Positions 13,481 to 19,707 of a stretch of DNA of 64,000 nt are shown piece after piece. Each line of letters opens with the position of its first letter. The first letter of the stretch is position 1. The stretch covers positions 673,707-737,706 of the forward strand of contig JACPAK010000001.1 in assembly GCA_016180845.1 (NCBI GenBank). Direction: 5' to 3'. The DNA is from Deltaproteobacteria bacterium. GTDB lineage: Bacteria; UBA10199; JACPAL01. Made by a program: the position numbers and the translations under genes. Under the pieces are notes generated by a model. The model was not told where the DNA came from, did no database searches, and saw only the letters and a list, made by a program, of their open reading frames with translations.

Positions 13481-14080
13481 TTGAAACTGATTGTTGCCAC
13501 ATTAAATCGGGGCAAATTCCGTGAGATCTCGGAGTTTCTTCGAGGGCTTCCTTTACAACTTATCCCGTTTTGGGAATTTCAACAGCTCGAACCGGTGATT
13601 GAAGATCAACCGACCTTTCAGGGGAATGCCTTGAAAAAGGCGCGGGCTGTCTTTGGAGAAACTGGTTTGCCTACGTTGGCCGATGACAGCGGATTGGTCG
13701 TTGATGCCTTGGGAGGGAGACCGGGTGTTTTTTCAGCACGTTATGCAGGAGAGAAGGCATCAGACGCTGAAAATCTTTCCAAACTTCTTCGCGAGATGGA
13801 ATCTATTCAAGAAGGGGAGAGGTCAGCCCACTTTGTCTGTGCGATGGTCTTGAGGCTGACCGATGGTCGGGAATTTTTTGTTGAAGAAAGATGCGACGGT
13901 GAGATTGCAAGGAAACCTGGAGGGGTTGGAGGCTTCGGTTATGATCCGATCTTCTTTTTGCCGGAGTTTGGTAAGACAATGGCTGAAATCTCACCTGATC
14001 TTAAGAATCAGATCAGTCATCGTGGGAAGGCACTTCAAAAAATGAAAAAAATTCTCGTTAATCCTGAGGCGTCCAGCTAA
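13481..14080 (+). CDS. rdgB: Non-canonical purine NTP pyrophosphatase (Ham1/RdgB family)
   Basis: MKLIVATLNRGKFREI...TLADDSGLVVDALGGRPGVFSARYAG...FGYDPIF are the Ham1 family motifs. Confidence 0.88.
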   Translation: MKLIVATLNRGKFREISEFLRGLPLQLIPFWEFQQLEPVIEDQPTFQGNALKKARAVFGETGLPTLADDSGLVVDALGGRPGVFSARYAGEKASDAENLSKLLREMESIQEGERSAHFVCAMVLRLTDGREFFVEERCDGEIARKPGGVGGFGYDPIFFLPEFGKTMAEISPDLKNQISHRGKALQKMKKILVNPEASS

Positions 14081-15533
14081 CGGACGAGTTGGTCATTGTG
14101 TTCCCTGAGGGGTCTTTTACGTTTTGAATCGTGATGGTGTATTGTTGCGGCGCCGAAAGGTTCCCTCGGACATTCCAGGTTTGACTTCCACCGGATCTAG
14201 CTGCATTCCCACAAATCGTCGGCCAATCAAGCCCCCACTCAAACACGGTACCGCTGCAGCTGGGGTCTTTAGGGGTGGTACAGCCAGCCTCTCCTTCCAC
14301 ACAGCAATAGGAGAACGATCCAGAACCCTCTGGCGAAGCGGCAGGGGTGTAGGTGGCATTCGCGGTGGTACACTGATCGGAATTAATCGTTTCACTAAAG
14401 CAAATGTAAATTGGTTGGCAGATTGATTGATTGAGGTCCCCATTTGCCGGTACAGCTTTACTGACAGTTGGTGCGGTTGTGTCAGCCGCAGCAGCTGTCG
14501 TGAAACTGGTGCTGGCGGAGCCGGAGAGGTCATTTCCCGCCGTATCTTTCTGGCCTGAGAAGGTGCAGGTGTAAGTGGTACTTGCTGACAGAGAGCCGCT
14601 GATCGCGCAGGAACAACTATTCGAGCTGTAGGTGCAGGAGGATAACGTGATGGAAGGGGAGCAGGATGCATTGGATGTGGAGCATAGACCCGAGTTCATC
14701 GTTTCACTGAAATTGGCTTTGATCGAGGAGAGATTTGTTGCCACTCCGGTAGCGTTATTAGCCGGTTCGAACGATGAGACCGTGGGGCTTGTCGTATCGG
14801 CCGTCGATCCTGTTGTAAAAGTAACGCTAGGATTCCCTCCGGAAACCGAATTGCCGGCGGCATCGGTCTGACTCGAAAGGGTACAAGTATAGCTTGTATC
14901 ACTGGTAAGGGAGGAGCTTAAGGTGCAGGTACAGCTATTGTTATCACTATTATAGCTACAGGAAGCAAAGGTGAGTGTAGGACTGCATGAGATATTCGAG
15001 GGGGCACATCGAGTTCCATCCATTGCCTCACTAAAGGTGAATGTAAGAGTCGCAAGATTGGTACTCACCCCTGTGGCCCCGTTCGAGGGTTCTGAAGAAC
15101 TGACTGTGGGACTCGTCGCATCCAGGGCATTGCTGACGTTAAATGTGACAACGACTGTCCTGGGATTGTCTGAGGCGTCTGTGATATTCCAGGTCAGGGT
15201 ACAACTGGCCCCCAGAGGGAGGTCTTGCTGGAGCGCTGCAGAGAGTACTCGAGTCAAACTGTCGAAGCTCAAATTTCCGAGCGAAATCGATGTTCCTGCA
15301 CAGACAAGCGTCACGCTGCTTTCAGAGACGTTTACTTCTTCATCGACGGTAATCGAAGCGCGGTTGATGTTAGGGGCGACAGTGGCGTCATCTACAGGGT
15401 TTTGTGCCGTGATAGCGGGGGGGGATGAATCTCCGGTGAGGCCCGCAATATCTATCTGTGCTGAACAGGCAACAAGAAAAACAAGACTACTACCGAACAA
15501 AACAGAAAAAGCTCTCATTCGTCGAGGCACCAC
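14058..15533 (-). CDS. Secreted Ser/Thr-rich cell-surface protein with three tandem Ig-like (SbsA-type) domains
   Basis: It has a signal peptide (MVPRRMRAFSVLFGSSLVFLVACSAQ). A block of about 100 aa repeats three times (TSPTVSS.EP.N.ATGV.TNL...FSE.M...C...SCSP..T..SC.Y.S...C.C..S.SL...T.YTCT.S...D.AGN). It is very Ser/Thr-rich. The antisense ORFs 14117..14671 and 14971..15561 are shadows of it. Confidence 0.7.
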   Translation of the reverse strand: MVPRRMRAFSVLFGSSLVFLVACSAQIDIAGLTGDSSPPAITAQNPVDDATVAPNINRASITVDEEVNVSESSVTLVCAGTSISLGNLSFDSLTRVLSAALQQDLPLGASCTLTWNITDASDNPRTVVVTFNVSNALDATSPTVSSSEPSNGATGVSTNLATLTFTFSEAMDGTRCAPSNISCSPTLTFASCSYNSDNNSCTCTLSSSLTSDTSYTCTLSSQTDAAGNSVSGGNPSVTFTTGSTADTTSPTVSSFEPANNATGVATNLSSIKANFSETMNSGLCSTSNASCSPSITLSSCTYSSNSCSCAISGSLSASTTYTCTFSGQKDTAGNDLSGSASTSFTTAAAADTTAPTVSKAVPANGDLNQSICQPIYICFSETINSDQCTTANATYTPAASPEGSGSFSYCCVEGEAGCTTPKDPSCSGTVFEWGLDWPTICGNAARSGGSQTWNVRGNLSAPQQYTITIQNVKDPSGNTMTNSSVSWTPQD

Positions 15534-15629: not shown

Positions 15630-17597
15630 ATGTCACCAACTTTAAAAGCCGGTCGACGCCTCATTTCCCTTCTCGTCTTTATCTTTGTATTGCTGGCCCC
15701 GATCTTTTCTTATGCCACAGCGACACGGTTTAGTGTCTTTCGTGCCTACCCGAGCGCCCTTCATAACGATTTTCAATTTATCTATGGCTCCCAAGGGCTT
15801 TTTCACCTGGAGTGGGAGGCAGGAACGCAATTGGATATTGCCTACCGTCCGATGGAGGGGTCGACGCGGACGATTATAGACACCGTTTTTACAGAGCATT
15901 TTTTTGCCGGGATCGGTCTCTTCGATTGGTTTTCTCTGGGGGCCGATCTCCCTATCGCCTGGTTTAATCGGTTTCAGCAACCGTCAGGGACAGGGGGATT
16001 CGAGAATGCGCTTGATATGGGAGATCTGAGGATCGATTTAAAATTCGAGATCCTTTCCCCCTATCGTTATCCGGTTGGGATCGCTGTTGTCCCTTTTATT
16101 CATTTGCCGACGGGCAATGCGCAAAACTTCGTTGGTGATGAATCGATTCTGGGTGGTGGTATCCTTGCCCTCGATGTCGAGTTCGCCCGTCGTTTCGTTC
16201 TTGGTCTTAATACGGGGGTAGAAGTTGGGGAAGATATTAATGTCAGCAATATTCAGATCAGCAAGGCGAGGCTTCTTTTGGGTCTTGGAGCAGCGGTGAA
16301 ATTTACTCCTAAGCTTGATTTTACTCTGGAGGGAATCGCCAAGGGGCCATTGGACCGGTTGTTTGAGGAGGTGGCTGAAAATCCTGTTGAACTGCTGGGC
16401 GGACTTCGTTGGAAGGCGGAAAATGGACTCAGTCTCTCGGGGGGATTCGGAGCGGGGCTTGTTTATGGGGCCGGCGCTCCGCGAATCCGGGGGCTTTTAA
16501 AGGCCAGCTATGCAGGGTCTACAGAGGCTCATAAGAGAAAACGTCAAAAGATGATGGAGCAAAAATACGGTCTTCCGGAGCAGCCGGCTGTTGAATGGGC
16601 TGTCTTTGAGTTGAAGGGGAAATGCCCTGAAAAGCCAGAGGACTTTAATCCAGAAATTCACGATCCAAGTTGTCCAAAATATTATGAGTTAAGTCAGATT
16701 GCGTCTTTGAGTCTCTCTTGCCCAAGTCAGGAAGAGGATTTTGATCCGGAGAAACATGACCCTGCCTGTCCCAAGGTGTACGAACTCCGGAAAGATCTCT
16801 CAAAAGAGGAATATGCAACTGTCTACGTTTTGGCGGCATCAGACCTTGCCAATCGATGTCCTGAAGACCCATCGCAATTCAATCCCGAGATCCATGATCA
16901 GGACTGCCCGAAGTTTTTTGAGTTACGAGAAACGGTTTCGTTGGTCTCTCGGTGCCCTGCTACCGAGGAGGATTTCAATCCAGAAATCCACGATGCTGGT
17001 TGCCCGAAGGTTTATTCGTTGAGTCAGGACTATGAGAAAAGTGATATTCAGGCGATTTATTTGTTGGCGGATGCCGATTCCGATCGTGACGGTATTCGGG
17101 ATCTAGAAGATCGTTGTCCTCAATCCATTGGCGTTGCCGCCTTCTTTGGTTGCCCTGAGGTCAAGATAGAATTTAAGGAGGGTCAGATTATCGGGACAGA
17201 GATTCCGATCACATTTGCCTTCGGAAGATCAGAACTGAGTGGGGAGATGGCGAGGGCCTTCAATGAAGTCGCCGAACTTCTCTTGAATCACCCTGAGATT
17301 CGGAAGGTTCGTATCGAGGGGCATGCCGATAGCGTCGGAACGGATGCAATGAACCGCTATATTTCGAAGAGGCGTGCCGACCTTGTGAAGGATTATCTCG
17401 TCTCTTGTGGGGTGGAATCAGAGAGAATCCATACAGTGGGGATGGGTGAAGAAAAACCGGTTGCACCGAATACCACTGCCGAAGGACGTGCGCAAAACCG
17501 CCGGGCGACACTCCTTGTCATCGAGCTTATTCAACAGATGCCGGCTAACGTACCTGTGCCAAGCGAGGTTTCGACACCTCCGTCACCGGTCCAGTAG
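15630..17597 (+). CDS. OmpA-family outer-membrane/peptidoglycan-associated protein with four internal CP-x3-EDFNPEIHD-x2-CPK repeats and one TSP3-like motif
   Basis: It has a signal peptide, a beta-rich N-terminal domain and a C-terminal OmpA-like domain (RIEGHADSVGTDAMNRYISKRRADLVKDYL). The repeats lie at 16620..17025. Confidence 0.8.
   Translation: MSPTLKAGRRLISLLVFIFVLLAPIFSYATATRFSVFRAYPSALHNDFQFIYGSQGLFHLEWEAGTQLDIAYRPMEGSTRTIIDTVFTEHFFAGIGLFDWFSLGADLPIAWFNRFQQPSGTGGFENALDMGDLRIDLKFEILSPYRYPVGIAVVPFIHLPTGNAQNFVGDESILGGGILALDVEFARRFVLGLNTGVEVGEDINVSNIQISKARLLLGLGAAVKFTPKLDFTLEGIAKGPLDRLFEEVAENPVELLGGLRWKAENGLSLSGGFGAGLVYGAGAPRIRGLLKASYAGSTEAHKRKRQKMMEQKYGLPEQPAVEWAVFELKGKCPEKPEDFNPEIHDPSCPKYYELSQIASLSLSCPSQEEDFDPEKHDPACPKVYELRKDLSKEEYATVYVLAASDLANRCPEDPSQFNPEIHDQDCPKFFELRETVSLVSRCPATEEDFNPEIHDAGCPKVYSLSQDYEKSDIQAIYLLADADSDRDGIRDLEDRCPQSIGVAAFFGCPEVKIEFKEGQIIGTEIPITFAFGRSELSGEMARAFNEVAELLLNHPEIRKVRIEGHADSVGTDAMNRYISKRRADLVKDYLVSCGVESERIHTVGMGEEKPVAPNTTAEGRAQNRRATLLVIELIQQMPANVPVPSEVSTPPSPVQ
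16620..17025 (+). repeat. Four tandem ~40-aa coding repeats (CPEKPEDFNPEIHDPSCPKYYEL and relatives) in the OmpA-family gene
   Basis: Read directly in the translation: CPEKPEDFNPEIHD..CPK, CPSQEEDFDPEKHD..CPK, CPEDPSQFNPEIHD..CPK and CPATEEDFNPEIHD..CPK. Confidence 0.8.
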
Positions 17598-19464
17598 AGC
17601 TTGTTTCTTTGATGATTCCTGTGGTAAGCCACCCCATCTGGCCCTCGAGGAGACCTCGAGCGACGCTGTAAGTCTTGGCATCCTCATTGGACCAGATCTC
17701 TTTGAAGGCTCGTTTGATACGTCGTTTCGCAATTCGGCAAAAGAGATCGGCGAGTTGCAGAGGAGTACGATCCGCGTTGTTCTGTTTGGAGAGGGTGATT
17801 GCTCGTGAACAACTTGCCGCCATGGCAAAGAGATCGGTTCCGATGTCGACAATCCTCCCAAGAACCTGCTGTCTCCTCTCCAATCTTGCCTGATGAACAG
17901 ACATGCAATGGAAGATAGTTCGGGCCAAACGGTGACTCGCGTGGTCAACGAAACGGGCGTGACGAGCGAGCGGACCAAAGCTCGCATGTTTTGGCCACAA
18001 TGACCAGTGGAGCCATTGCTGCGGATACCAGCGCGAATAAAAAGTTCCCATTTTCCCTATCGCCTTCATCTTGGCACTGAAAGGTGATTTTGGGTTAATC
18101 AGGGCGCCAGCAACTCGCATATGAGGATCGAGCGCCTCTCGAGCAATAAAGAGCCTCAAAATTTCGCTGGATCCCTCAATCAGCGTGTTGATCCTAAAAT
18201 CCCTCATCATCCTCTCAATCGGGACCCCTTCTTCCCCTCTTTGTCTTAGTGACTCCGCCGTTTCATAGCCCCTCCCGCCACGGATCTGGAGTGTTTCGTC
18301 AATAATCTTCCATCCCTTCTCCGAACAGAAGAGCTTGCACATCGCCGCCTCAAGACGGATGTCCCTGCCACCGAGGTCGACATAGGTAGAGGTAAGCCAG
18401 GTGATCGCTTCCATTGCAAAGAGAGTTGCTGACATTTCACCAATCTTCGAGGCGATCGCCTCATGTTTTCCGATCGGGGCTCCCCATTGGACACGCTCAT
18501 TTGACCATTTTTTCGAAATTTCGAGGGCCAGCTTTGCTGCCCCCACACAGGCGGCTGGCAAGGTTAGTCGTCCTGTGTTTAACGTGATCAGTGCCAGTTT
18601 CAGACCAAGGCCTTCACCCCAAAGGATATTTTCTCGAGGGACCTTGACGTTTTTGAAACGGATCAAGCCATTCTGGATCGCCCTGAGTCCCATGAATTGA
18701 CAACGGTGAACAACCTCAATCCCTGGAGAATTCGCCTCGACAATAAAGGCTGTGATCTGCTTCTTTTCTTTTCCATTAACGAATTTTGATGGGGTTTTCG
18801 CCATGACGATAATAAGGCTGGCGACAGGTCCATTGGTGCACCAGAGTTTTTCACCATTAAGAGTAAAATATTTTCCATCCTCCGTCGGGGTTGCTGTCGT
18901 TGCCATTTGAGCAGGGTCTGAGCCGACCCCTGGTTCTGTCAGGGCAAATGCAGAGATTTCTTTCACAAGCCTTGGAAGAAATTTCTTTTTTTGTTCAGGC
19001 GTTCCGAAGAGTTTTAAGGGTTGTGGGACACCGATTGATTGATGGGCAGAGAGCCAGACGGCGACAGATCCACAATAACTGGTGACGAGTTGAACAACAC
19101 GATTGTAGTTGACCTGTGACAGACCAAGGCCACCGTATTCTTTTGGGATCTTCATCCCAAAACAGCCGAGCTCGATGAGGCCTTTGATAACAGCCTGCGG
19201 GATCTCGCCTGTTCTGTCGTGAAGTTCAGGATCGACATTTTTCTTTAAAAACTCTTCAACCTTTTTGAGGTATTCATCCCCAATTTTTTTGTCCTCGGCG
19301 GTTTGTTGCGGGTAGGGGGCAATCAGGTCGGTTCGGAGACGACCCATAAAAAGCTCACCCACAAAACTCGGATGAACCCACTTTTCCTCACGGGCCGCTT
19401 CAGCGATCTCCATGACTTCCTTGGCAGCTTCCTTTTCCTTTTGGGTAATTGTATCTTGGGCCAT
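17545..19464 (-). CDS. Acyl-CoA dehydrogenase, long-chain type (about 639 aa) with a C-terminal extension
   Basis: The ACAD core motifs are present (SEKGWKIIDETLQIRGGRGYETA, TLIEGSSEILRLFIAREALD). The likely start is ATG at 19464 (MAQDTITQKEK), preceded by an AGGAGG Shine-Dalgarno sequence. The listed ORF extends to 19533. It converges on the OmpA-family gene with a 53-nt overlap. Confidence 0.85.
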   Translation of the reverse strand: MAQDTITQKEKEAAKEVMEIAEAAREEKWVHPSFVGELFMGRLRTDLIAPYPQQTAEDKKIGDEYLKKVEEFLKKNVDPELHDRTGEIPQAVIKGLIELGCFGMKIPKEYGGLGLSQVNYNRVVQLVTSYCGSVAVWLSAHQSIGVPQPLKLFGTPEQKKKFLPRLVKEISAFALTEPGVGSDPAQMATTATPTEDGKYFTLNGEKLWCTNGPVASLIIVMAKTPSKFVNGKEKKQITAFIVEANSPGIEVVHRCQFMGLRAIQNGLIRFKNVKVPRENILWGEGLGLKLALITLNTGRLTLPAACVGAAKLALEISKKWSNERVQWGAPIGKHEAIASKIGEMSATLFAMEAITWLTSTYVDLGGRDIRLEAAMCKLFCSEKGWKIIDETLQIRGGRGYETAESLRQRGEEGVPIERMMRDFRINTLIEGSSEILRLFIAREALDPHMRVAGALINPKSPFSAKMKAIGKMGTFYSRWYPQQWLHWSLWPKHASFGPLARHARFVDHASHRLARTIFHCMSVHQARLERRQQVLGRIVDIGTDLFAMAASCSRAITLSKQNNADRTPLQLADLFCRIAKRRIKRAFKEIWSNEDAKTYSVARGLLEGQMGWLTTGIIKETSSTGPVTEVSKPRLAQVR

Positions 19465-19707
19465 AGGACCTCCTCTTAGTTGGGTATCCTTTGTAACTCC
19501 CTCTAGGCTAAATCTATATGACGCACAGCGCAAGTGAAAAATGAATGGCGATTCAGTTGATATTTTCGAAATATTTTAGTCGTCGAATGCCGCTTCAATA
19601 TCGCGTGCCCCATGCATGATAAGATACGAATTATTTGGATCACTTCTTTAGCAACTATTTCTCCGCCAATACGATCACACGACTGTTCTGTAACAAGGAG
19701 GATGTCT

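What the first reader, a model, noticed from the sequence alone, without database searches (positions are those of the whole stretch)
16620..17160. Novel Cys/His/Asp-rich tandem repeat (CP-x3-EDFNPEIHD-x2-CPK) in an OmpA-family protein
Four roughly 40-aa repeats each carry two Cys, one His and several Asp/Glu in fixed spacing. They are followed by a TSP3-like DRCPQS...GCPE motif. The pattern suggests a metal-binding (Ca or Zn) or disulfide-stabilised module. I do not recognise it as a described domain.
Basis: seen in the sequence. Interest (0 to 1): 0.55.

Follow-up and report, generated by a model that had tools for sequence, protein, structure and literature searches.

The report
Helical, calcium-site-poor offshoot of TSP3 repeats
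The four Cys/His/Asp-rich repeats are real and match no described domain, but they look like a diverged, mostly helical version of the calcium-binding thrombospondin type 3 (TSP3) repeats that link the outer-membrane barrel to the cell-wall-binding OmpA domain in related proteins, so this is a rare new variant of a known linker, not a new kind of system.

Summary
ORF 15630-17597 (+, 655 aa) carries four copies of CP-x3-[ED][DQ]F[ND]PE-x-HD-x2-CPK, starting at aa 332, 364, 410 and 442 (periods 32/46/32 aa). One genuine bacterial TSP3 repeat (aa 481-510) and an OmpA domain (aa 528-624) follow.

The four repeats hit nothing in Pfam, NCBIfam or PDB sequences, and their predicted fold has no PDB counterpart by Foldseek. 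The family is rare: 29 clusters among 1.84 billion representative proteins, and 18 loci among the representative genomes of 185,579 species. All loci come from uncultured "Deltaproteobacteria"-type MAGs, and all 40 members scanned also have an OmpA domain.

The repeats are probably not unrelated to known domains.
- Distant homologues with the same barrel and OmpA ends carry canonical TSP3 units (CPxxPEDxDGFxDxDGCPDxDNDxDG) in the same place.
- Those units have the same 16-residue Cys-Cys spacing and a 33-aa period.
- A profile-profile comparison aligns the two cores in register (95% probability), and 0 of 150 interior-shuffled controls reach that score.

AlphaFold2 predicts each unit, at pLDDT 82-94, as helix, Cys-bracketed 15-residue loop, helix. 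Asp content drops from about 27% to 9%.

Best reading (inferred): a disulfide-stapled helical spacer between the outer membrane and peptidoglycan. Residual metal binding is not excluded. Verdict: new variant of a known kind, moderate interest.

The parts
15630..17597 (+). Whole gene: 655-aa outer-membrane protein made of signal peptide, beta-barrel, Cys-repeat linker, one TSP3 repeat and an OmpA domain
   Evidence: ORF. It is identical to P0001, 'MAG: OmpA family protein [Deltaproteobacteria bacterium]'. AF2 model mean pLDDT is 89.4.
15630..15722 (+). Signal peptide (about aa 1-31, no lipobox Cys)
   Evidence: Read directly from the sequence (MSPTLKAGRRLISLLVFIFVLLAPIFSYATA). AF2 predicts helix 4-22. 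The cleavage site is inferred.
15813..16517 (+). N-terminal outer-membrane beta-barrel (aa 62-296)
   Evidence: AF2 predicts strands over 62-296 at pLDDT above 90. Foldseek finds FapF 5O67 (E 6e-11) and the COG4313 channel 4RL8 (E 1.4e-8). 11 of 40 family members hit PF13557 Phenol_MetA_deg.
16587..17075 (+). Helical Cys-repeat domain (aa 320-482) holding the four repeats
   Evidence: AF2 helices are 321-331, 348-363, 380-409, 426-441 and 458-481, with loops between them, at pLDDT 82-94. Modelled alone, the region gives pLDDT 85 and pTM 0.70. This is the query that found the 29 clusters.
16623..16679 (+). Repeat 1 core, CPEKPEDFNPEIHDPSCPK (C332...C348)
16719..16775 (+). Repeat 2 core, CPSQEEDFDPEKHDPACPK (C364...C380)
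16857..16913 (+). Repeat 3 core, CPEDPSQFNPEIHDQDCPK (C410...C426)
16953..17009 (+). Repeat 4 core, CPATEEDFNPEIHDAGCPK (C442...C458)
17070..17159 (+). One canonical bacterial TSP3 repeat, DSDRDGIRDLEDRCPQSIGVAAFFGCPE (aa 481-510, C496...C508)
   Evidence: Matches the five TSP3 repeats of PDB 5WTL_A (E 4.4e-12). Pfam TSP_3 scores 16 bits, below threshold.
17211..17501 (+). OmpA-like peptidoglycan-binding domain (aa 528-624)
   Evidence: PF00691 at 8e-23. Foldseek matches OprF, YfiB, Pal and the 5WTP OmpA C-domain with target-normalised TM-scores (TMt) up to 0.9. D567 and R582 are invariant across homologues.

Best explanation
The four repeats form a folded, mostly helical periplasmic spacer domain in an outer-membrane-to-peptidoglycan tether. 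The protein has a Sec signal peptide, a FapF/COG4313-like outer-membrane beta-barrel, this linker, one ordinary TSP3 repeat and an OmpA-type peptidoglycan-binding domain. The Myxococcus outer-membrane exchange protein TraB has the same overall layout.

Each repeat is a diverged TSP3 unit. The stretch between the two Cys (CP-x3-ED-F-[ND]-P-x2-H-D-x2-CP) keeps the frame of the canonical CP-x3-ED-x-DG-F-x-D-x-DG-CP loop. The Asp-rich Ca2+ loop that normally follows (D-x-D-N-D-x-DG-I-x-D-x2-D) is replaced by an amphipathic helix (K-[YF]Y-E-L-...).

The two Cys lie at the end of one helix and the start of the next. They most likely form an intra-repeat disulfide that staples a 15-residue loop. The conserved aromatic residue (F/Y 100%), Pro, His and Asp would pack and cap that loop. 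The result would be a spacer of fixed length that depends little on calcium.

Shown: the repeat itself, its conservation, its rarity, the domain architecture, the confident helix-loop-helix prediction, and the positional and profile similarity to TSP3.

Inferred: the disulfides, the loss of Ca2+ dependence, and the spacer function.
For: Architecture:
- OmpA domain.
- The barrel is similar to FapF and COG4313.
- The best NCBIfam hit is TraB NF033763, 171 bits in 2 stretches. TraB is described as SP + OM beta-barrel + TSP3 linker + OmpA domain (PMC12045341).

Structure:
- In the AF2 whole-protein model the repeat region has pLDDT 82-94, with each Cys pair bracketing a loop between two helices. 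The isolated domain gives pLDDT 85 and pTM 0.70.

TSP3 ancestry:
- In distant homologues P0014, P0016 and P0018, with the same barrel and OmpA ends, the same position holds canonical CPxxPEDxDGFxDxDGCPDxDNDxDG units. These have identical Cys-Cys spacing (16) and a 33-aa period, against 32 aa here.
- Pfam TSP_3 covers those canonical units (6 stretches, 1.8e-19).
- Eleven family members keep such a canonical unit right after the derived array.
- hhalign of the derived core against the canonical core gives 94.8-95.6% probability in register 1-18. The score is 26.3, against 13.0 +/- 3.3 (maximum 24.2) for 150 shuffles of the interior columns.
- A BLOSUM column-permutation test gives p about 0.01, with register 0 the best of 7 shifts.
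- Intermediate 'G-V-D-D' loops occur at slots 1 and 4 of more distant members.

Disulfide:
- Linker Cys always occur in i / i+15-16 pairs, or i+12 in TSP3 units.
- In one P0014 unit both Cys are lost together.
- The solved bacterial TSP3 repeats of 5WTL are reported to have intra-repeat disulfides. This rests on the title of Dai et al. 2017 as cited in PMC12045341.

Selection:
- The repeat region is more conserved than the rest of the protein.
Against: - No coordinates were available, so Cys-Cys distances in the model could not be measured. The disulfides are inferred.
- Homology between 19-residue motifs is inherently weak. Most of the raw hhalign score comes from the CP...CP frame. The Pfam TSP_3 HMM does not detect the four repeats, or the isolated canonical core, at E<=10.
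- The loops, not the helices, hold the most conserved residues (F/Y 100%, D14 89%, K19 90%, H13 79%). A pure spacer would not obviously require that, so a ligand, metal or partner site may be present.
- No experimental data exist for any member, and every member comes from an uncultured organism.
Confidence: 0.55

Rival explanations
1. Each repeat is a metal-binding module. Either Cys332/Cys348-type pairs plus His and Asp coordinate Zn2+ or another transition metal, or the remaining acidic residues still bind Ca2+. The linker's fold or length would then respond to metal.
For: - Each unit has fixed C-x11-H-x3-C spacing with an adjacent invariant-like Asp (89%) and D/N at position 9 (80%).
- His occupies the column held by a Ca-ligand-type Asp in canonical units, where D is 94%.
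- The repeat profile weakly touches a TRAF6 zinc-finger segment, 'DKEIHDQNCP', but at E 4.7, which is not significant.
- The loops are the best conserved part.
Against: - The protein is exported, since it has a signal peptide and an OM barrel. Paired periplasmic Cys are usually oxidised (general knowledge).
- His is replaced by D/N/S in 11 of 25 homologues at slot 1 and 8 of 23 at slot 4, while the Cys never vary.
- There is no CxxC first ligand pair as in C2HC fingers (sequence).
- Asp content fell from 27-28% to 9%, and the DxDxDG motifs are gone.
- No match to any metal-binding family.
Confidence: 0.2
2. The repeat is an independently evolved Cys-loop/helix domain whose likeness to TSP3 is convergent. 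Its main role would be protein-protein contact or oligomerisation, for example a periplasmic stalk that bundles several barrels, or a docking site for a partner.
For: - No HMM-level hit to TSP_3.
- The predicted secondary structure is helical, unlike the coil-like TSP3 repeats (aa 482-527 are coil).
- The nearest solved barrel, FapF, is deposited as multi-chain assemblies. TraB has been proposed to form trimers through its barrel (PMC12045341).
- The conserved loop surfaces could be binding sites.
Against: - The position in homologous proteins, the Cys spacing, the unit period, the shared CPxxPED start and the intermediate forms all point to descent from TSP3 units.
- No conserved neighbouring gene that could encode a partner was found in 3 distant loci or in the closest relatives.
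Confidence: 0.15
3. The pattern is a chance or low-complexity feature, or an assembly artefact, in a non-functional ORF.
For: None found.
Against: - The pattern is conserved in about 40 homologues at 27-58% identity, with all Cys pairs kept.
- DNA copies are only 60-72% identical.
- The AF2 model is confident.
- The identical protein is present in NCBI.
Confidence: 0.01

Closest known systems
Bacterial thrombospondin type 3 (TSP3) repeats of OmpA-family proteins (Pfam PF02412; solved in Capnocytophaga gingivalis OmpA, PDB 5WTL)
   Same: - Same location, between an OM barrel and the OmpA domain.
- Two Cys per unit in CP...CP frames.
- The 'type II' canonical unit CPxxPEDxDGFxDxDGCP has the same 16-residue Cys spacing and a 33-aa period, against 32 aa here.
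- Shared CP-x2-P-E-D-x-[DN] start.
- hhalign gives about 95% probability in register.
- One true TSP3 repeat still follows the array.
   Different: - No hit to the TSP_3 HMM.
- The DxDxDGxxD Ca2+ motifs are lost, and Asp is 9% against 27-28%.
- His replaces a conserved Asp.
- The inter-Cys-pair segment is a predicted amphipathic helix instead of an acidic loop.
- Units alternate 32/46 aa, or about 49 aa in other subfamilies.
TraB, outer membrane exchange protein of Myxococcus xanthus (NCBIfam NF033763)
   Same: Same domain order: signal peptide, OM beta-barrel, Cys-containing repeat linker, OmpA domain. It is the best NCBIfam hit, at 171 bits in two stretches (PMC12045341).
   Different: - The score is far below the family cut-off of 700 bits.
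- No traA-like neighbour. The upstream gene is a Big_5 lipoprotein that is not conserved.
- The linker chemistry differs.
FapF / COG4313 (Phenol_MetA_deg, PF13557) outer-membrane barrels
   Same: The N-terminal barrel superposes on FapF (E 6e-11, TMt 0.56-0.65) and on 4RL8 (E 1.4e-8, TMt 0.65). 11 of 40 family members hit PF13557.
   Different: - Those proteins have no OmpA domain and no Cys-repeat linker.
- The window protein itself does not reach a Pfam hit to PF13557.

Membership tests
OmpA-like peptidoglycan-binding domain (PF00691) | HMM match above the Pfam gathering score | tested here: met
   81.1 bits against a cut-off of 27.2, aa 528-624. All 40 family members also hit.
OmpA-like peptidoglycan-binding domain (PF00691) | Conserved Asp/Arg pair that contacts the diaminopimelate of peptidoglycan. 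Assigning this role to the pair rests on my own knowledge of OmpA-like domain structures. | tested here: met
   D567 and R582 are invariant in the alignments of 13 and 40 homologues. Binding itself was not tested.
TSP_3 repeat (PF02412), applied to the four novel repeats | Match to the TSP_3 HMM | tested here: not met
   No hit at E<=10 for the repeat region or for single units.
TSP_3 repeat (PF02412), applied to the four novel repeats | Asp-rich Ca2+-binding motif DxDxDGxxDxxD | tested here: not met
   Absent from all four units. Asp fraction is 0.09, against 0.27-0.28 in canonical linkers.
TSP_3 repeat (PF02412), applied to the four novel repeats | Cys pair per unit with the spacing and period of canonical bacterial units, at the same position in homologous proteins | tested here: met
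   - The Cys pair is C to C+16 in both.
- The period is 32 aa against 33 aa.
- Both occupy the same linker position.
- The profile-profile alignment is in register, and 0 of 150 shuffles reach its score.
TSP_3 repeat (PF02412), applied to aa 481-510 | Sequence match to solved bacterial TSP3 repeats or to the Pfam HMM | tested here: inconclusive
   PDB 5WTL_A matches at E 4.4e-12, summed over 5 stretches. Pfam gives only 16 bits, below the cut-off of 25. I accept it as a single TSP3 repeat.
TraB (NF033763) | Score above the NCBIfam cut-off | tested here: not met
   171 bits against 700.
TraB (NF033763) | Partner gene traA nearby. TraA is a Cys-rich-repeat, MYXO-CTERM cell-surface receptor that works with TraB (PMC12045341). 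The expectation that the two genes are adjacent, and the PA14 label for the TraA variable domain, come from my own knowledge. | tested here: not met
   The neighbours are Ham1, a Big_5 lipoprotein and an acyl-CoA dehydrogenase. No conserved partner appears in related loci.
C2HC / TRAF-type zinc finger | Four ligands including a first CxxC pair | tested here: not met
   There are only C-x11-H-x3-C and no CxxC. The sequence match to TRAF6 is E 4.7.
Phenol_MetA_deg / COG4313-type barrel (PF13557) | HMM match or fold match of the N-terminal barrel | tested here: inconclusive
   The window protein has no Pfam hit, though 11 of 40 relatives do. The fold matches 4RL8 and FapF.

The most novel reading that the evidence does not exclude
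The repeats are a functionally re-purposed TSP3 descendant. The His/Asp/Cys loops would form a transition-metal- or redox-responsive switch, so that the length or stiffness of the outer membrane-peptidoglycan tether changes with periplasmic Zn/Cu or thiol-disulfide state. This would be a previously undescribed metal- or redox-sensing envelope ruler.
Probability: 0.1. Interest if true: 0.6.

Novelty: new variant of a known kind. Interest (0 to 1): 0.35.

Why it matters
Linkers between outer-membrane anchors and peptidoglycan-binding domains help set the width and mechanics of the periplasm. TSP3-type linkers are thought to depend on calcium. This family suggests that such a linker can be remodelled into a folded, helix-rich, probably disulfide-stapled domain that has lost most of its calcium ligands.

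If that holds, three things follow:
- It gives an example of a repeat changing fold class while keeping its Cys frame.
- It defines an unannotated domain that could be added to Pfam or InterPro.
- It offers a compact and possibly calcium-independent spacer module.

The family is small and confined to uncultured lineages, and no phenotype is known. The practical impact is therefore modest.

Tried and rejected
This is a limit of the word index and does not show absence, because the whole-protein search and the exhaustive HMMER search do find the family.
- Tandem Repeats Finder at DNA level found nothing.
- Pfam, NCBIfam and PDB sequence searches of the repeats found only the terminal TSP3 unit.
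- Foldseek against PDB with the isolated repeat domain gave nothing significant.
- I looked for a conserved partner or operon and found none. The neighbourhoods of P0010, P0011 and P0013 are unrelated. The close relatives share housekeeping synteny (DnaB-Ham1, acyl-CoA dehydrogenase), but the Big_5 lipoprotein is not consistently present.
- TraB orthology is rejected, because the score is far below the cut-off and there is no traA.
- The zinc-finger reading is not supported, because there is no CxxC pair and His is variable.
- The Dai et al. 2017 paper on 5WTL is not held. Only its title, as cited in PMC12045341, was used.
- Model coordinates are not exposed, so Cys-Cys distances and the bundle geometry could not be measured.
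Full report
**Observation.** The flagged region lies inside one ORF, 15630..17597 on the + strand, 655 aa. Four units share the core CP-x3-[ED][DQ]-F-[ND]-P-E-x-H-D-x2-C-P-K. Their first Cys are at aa 332, 364, 410 and 442 (nt 16623, 16719, 16857, 16953). Aligning the four units gives 12 invariant columns. Unit spacing alternates 32/46/32 aa, that is 96/138/96 nt, so the array is really two copies of a short-plus-long pair. At nucleotide level the copies are only 60-72% identical and Tandem Repeats Finder reports nothing, so the duplication is old. After the array comes DSDRDGIRDLEDRCPQSIGVAAFFGCPE (aa 481-510). This matches each of the five TSP3 repeats in the solved periplasmic part of Capnocytophaga gingivalis OmpA (5WTL_A, E 4.4e-12) and gives a sub-threshold Pfam TSP_3 hit. 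The OmpA domain is at aa 528-624 (PF00691, 8e-23).

**Is it described?** Pfam and NCBIfam give no hit on the four units even at E<=10. Neither the region nor a 120-sequence repeat profile matches any PDB sequence. An AlphaFold2 model of the isolated region (pLDDT 85, pTM 0.70) has no significant Foldseek match in the PDB (best E 0.75, TM <= 0.31). The repeat therefore has no curated model in these libraries. The more sensitive fold libraries were not available.

**Distribution.** The identical protein is in NCBI as 'MAG: OmpA family protein [Deltaproteobacteria bacterium]' (P0001).
- A whole-protein search found a dozen full-length relatives at 30-56% identity with the same repeats.
- An exhaustive phmmer search of the 163-aa repeat region against 1.84 billion representative proteins found only 29 clusters.
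- A scan of one genome per 185,579 species found 18 loci. All come from uncultured MAGs labelled Deltaproteobacteria, Bdellovibrio sp., Myxococcales or Pseudomonadota.
- All 40 members scanned carry an OmpA domain, 17 also hit TSP_3, and 11 hit PF13557 Phenol_MetA_deg in the N-terminal part.
- Two searches with short repeat queries returned nothing. Given, that is a limit of the word index and does not show absence.
- From about 40 proteins I extracted 146 repeat units, and 120 of them made up the profile. Over the 19-residue core their position frequencies are: C1 100%, P2 100%, P5 71%, F/Y8 100%, D/N9 80%, P10 71%, H13 79% (otherwise mostly D), D14 89%, C17 100%, P18 66%, K19 90%.
- In the closest orthologues the repeat region is more conserved (63-68% identity) than the protein as a whole (54-56%).

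**Architecture and structure.** The whole-protein AlphaFold2 model (40-sequence alignment, mean pLDDT 89.4) shows the following segments:
- a signal-peptide helix (aa 4-22);
- a beta-barrel (aa 62-296);
- a helix (aa 299-313);
- an alternation of helices (321-331, 348-363, 380-409, 426-441, 458-481) and 16-residue non-helical stretches, each beginning with the first Cys of a unit and ending just before the second Cys, which opens the next helix;
- a coil over the TSP3 unit;
- the OmpA fold (aa 528-633).

The repeat region has pLDDT 82-94. Foldseek places the barrel next to FapF (5O67, E 6e-11) and the COG4313 channel 4RL8 (E 1.4e-8). It places the C-terminus next to OprF, YfiB, Pal and the Capnocytophaga OmpA C-domain. 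The best NCBIfam hit is the Myxococcus outer-membrane exchange protein TraB (171 bits in two stretches), far below its 700-bit cut-off. TraB is described as signal peptide + OM beta-barrel + TSP3 linker + OmpA domain (PMC12045341). The layout is therefore TraB-like, but this protein is not a TraB orthologue. There is also no traA-like neighbour: the flanking genes are DnaB, Ham1, a divergent Big_5 lipoprotein and an acyl-CoA dehydrogenase. Neighbourhoods of distant members are unrelated. Close relatives share only housekeeping synteny, and the Big_5 gene is present in one and absent in the other.

**Relation to TSP3 repeats.** Six observations link the novel units to canonical TSP3 units.
1. 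In the more distant homologues P0014, P0016 and P0018, which align over the barrel and the OmpA domain, the same linker position holds CPxxPEDxDGFxDxDGCP-DxDNDxDGIxDxxDx units. Pfam TSP_3 covers these units (6 stretches, 1.8e-19).
2. Their Cys-Cys spacing (16) is identical to that of the novel units, and their period is 33 aa against 32 aa for the short novel unit.
3. Eleven family members keep one such canonical unit immediately after the derived array.
4. hhalign of the 19-residue derived core (120 sequences) against the canonical core (18-19 sequences) aligns positions 1-18 with 1-18 at 94.8-95.6% probability. Its score of 26.3 exceeds all 150 controls in which the 14 interior columns of the canonical alignment were shuffled and the CP...CP frame kept (mean 13.0, sd 3.3, maximum 24.2). 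A simpler BLOSUM column-permutation test gives p about 0.01, and register 0 is the best of seven shifts.
5. More distant members have 'x-G-V-D-D-x2-CPK' loops at slots 1 and 4, which are intermediate between the two forms. Slot 2 is His in 25 of 25 sequences and slot 3 in 22 of 25.
6. The Asp fraction is 0.09 in the derived array, against 0.27-0.28 in canonical linkers.

I conclude, as an inference, that each novel unit descends from a TSP3 unit. The Cys-bracketed loop lost its DGxxDxDG motif, and His now stands in the column where canonical units have 94% Asp. The following Asp-rich Ca2+ loop became an amphipathic helix.

**Mechanism.** The most likely picture has three parts:
- the barrel sits in the outer membrane;
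- the OmpA domain binds peptidoglycan (D567 and R582 are invariant; that these two residues contact diaminopimelate is from my own knowledge of OmpA-like domains);
- the roughly 160-residue repeat domain is a folded spacer between them.

Within the linker, Cys occur only in pairs at i / i+15-16, or i+12 in TSP3 units. In one P0014 unit both Cys are lost together. Bacterial TSP3 repeats are reported to have an intra-repeat disulfide, according to the title of Dai et al. 2017 as cited in PMC12045341; the paper itself is not held. The protein is exported. I therefore expect four intra-unit disulfides (C332-C348, C364-C380, C410-C426, C442-C458), plus C496-C508 in the TSP3 unit, each stapling a loop between two helices. 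I could not verify distances because the model coordinates are not exposed.

The strongest caveat is that the loops, not the helices, carry the most conserved residues. That could reflect a metal, ligand or partner site. A Zn-type site (C-x11-H-x3-C plus Asp) or residual Ca2+ binding is not excluded. The variable His at slots 1 and 4, the absence of a CxxC pair, the insignificant TRAF6 match (E 4.7) and the periplasmic location all argue against it.

**Verdict.** The interpretation ('undescribed, disulfide- or metal-stabilised module') is partly supported. The module is undescribed in Pfam, NCBIfam and the PDB and probably disulfide-stabilised, but it is best seen as a diverged, helix-rich, Asp-poor derivative of TSP3 linker repeats in a TraB-like barrel-linker-OmpA protein. 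That makes it a new variant of a known kind, in a small family confined to uncultured lineages, with no functional data. Interest is moderate (0.35).

Noticed in passing
window 14058-15533 (-): A divergently transcribed upstream gene encodes a 491-aa putative lipoprotein with three Big_5 Ig-like domains (PF13205, 4.6e-44) and a weak CopC match. It is unusually rich in Cys, Ser and Thr. A fragment of it is also upstream of the orthologue in L005, but it is absent in L006, so it is probably not an obligate partner.
   Followed up: partly
window 17545-17597: The listed acyl-CoA dehydrogenase ORF (17545..19533, -) overlaps the 3' end of the OmpA-family gene by about 53 nt, in convergent orientation.
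   Followed up: no
window 15813-16517 (+): The N-terminal barrel has no Pfam hit in this protein. Its model resembles the FapF amyloid transporter and the COG4313 channel, and 11 of 40 relatives hit PF13557 Phenol_MetA_deg. A barrel of this type fused to an OmpA domain may merit its own annotation.
   Followed up: partly
homologues including P0011, P0012, P0013 and P0020 (Cys pairs three residues apart, e.g. aa 294/297 in P0011 and 265/268 in P0013): Distant family members carry a CxxC pair (for example 'TCLVCG' in P0011) in the last barrel strands. The window protein has GAGLVYG at that place. Its meaning is unknown.
   Followed up: no
window 17502-17594 (+): After the OmpA domain the protein ends in a Pro-rich tail (…PANVPVPSEVSTPPSPVQ), modelled at low confidence (pLDDT about 52). 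The closest orthologues lack this tail.
   Followed up: no
subfamily P0013, P0032, P0033, P0037, P0041: A second repeat flavour has a period of about 49-60 aa. Each Cys loop is preceded by a conserved 'KF-x-EV-x-L-x-LKKN' helix, and some members have up to 6 derived units, with 7 Cys-pair motifs in P0020. The unit number, and so the likely linker length, varies across the family.
   Followed up: partly
tool behaviour: the search for homologous proteins returned no hits for a 191-aa exact sub-sequence of a protein that is in its database, or for a 42-column repeat profile. Negative results from that tool with short or repetitive queries should not be read as absence.
   Followed up: yes
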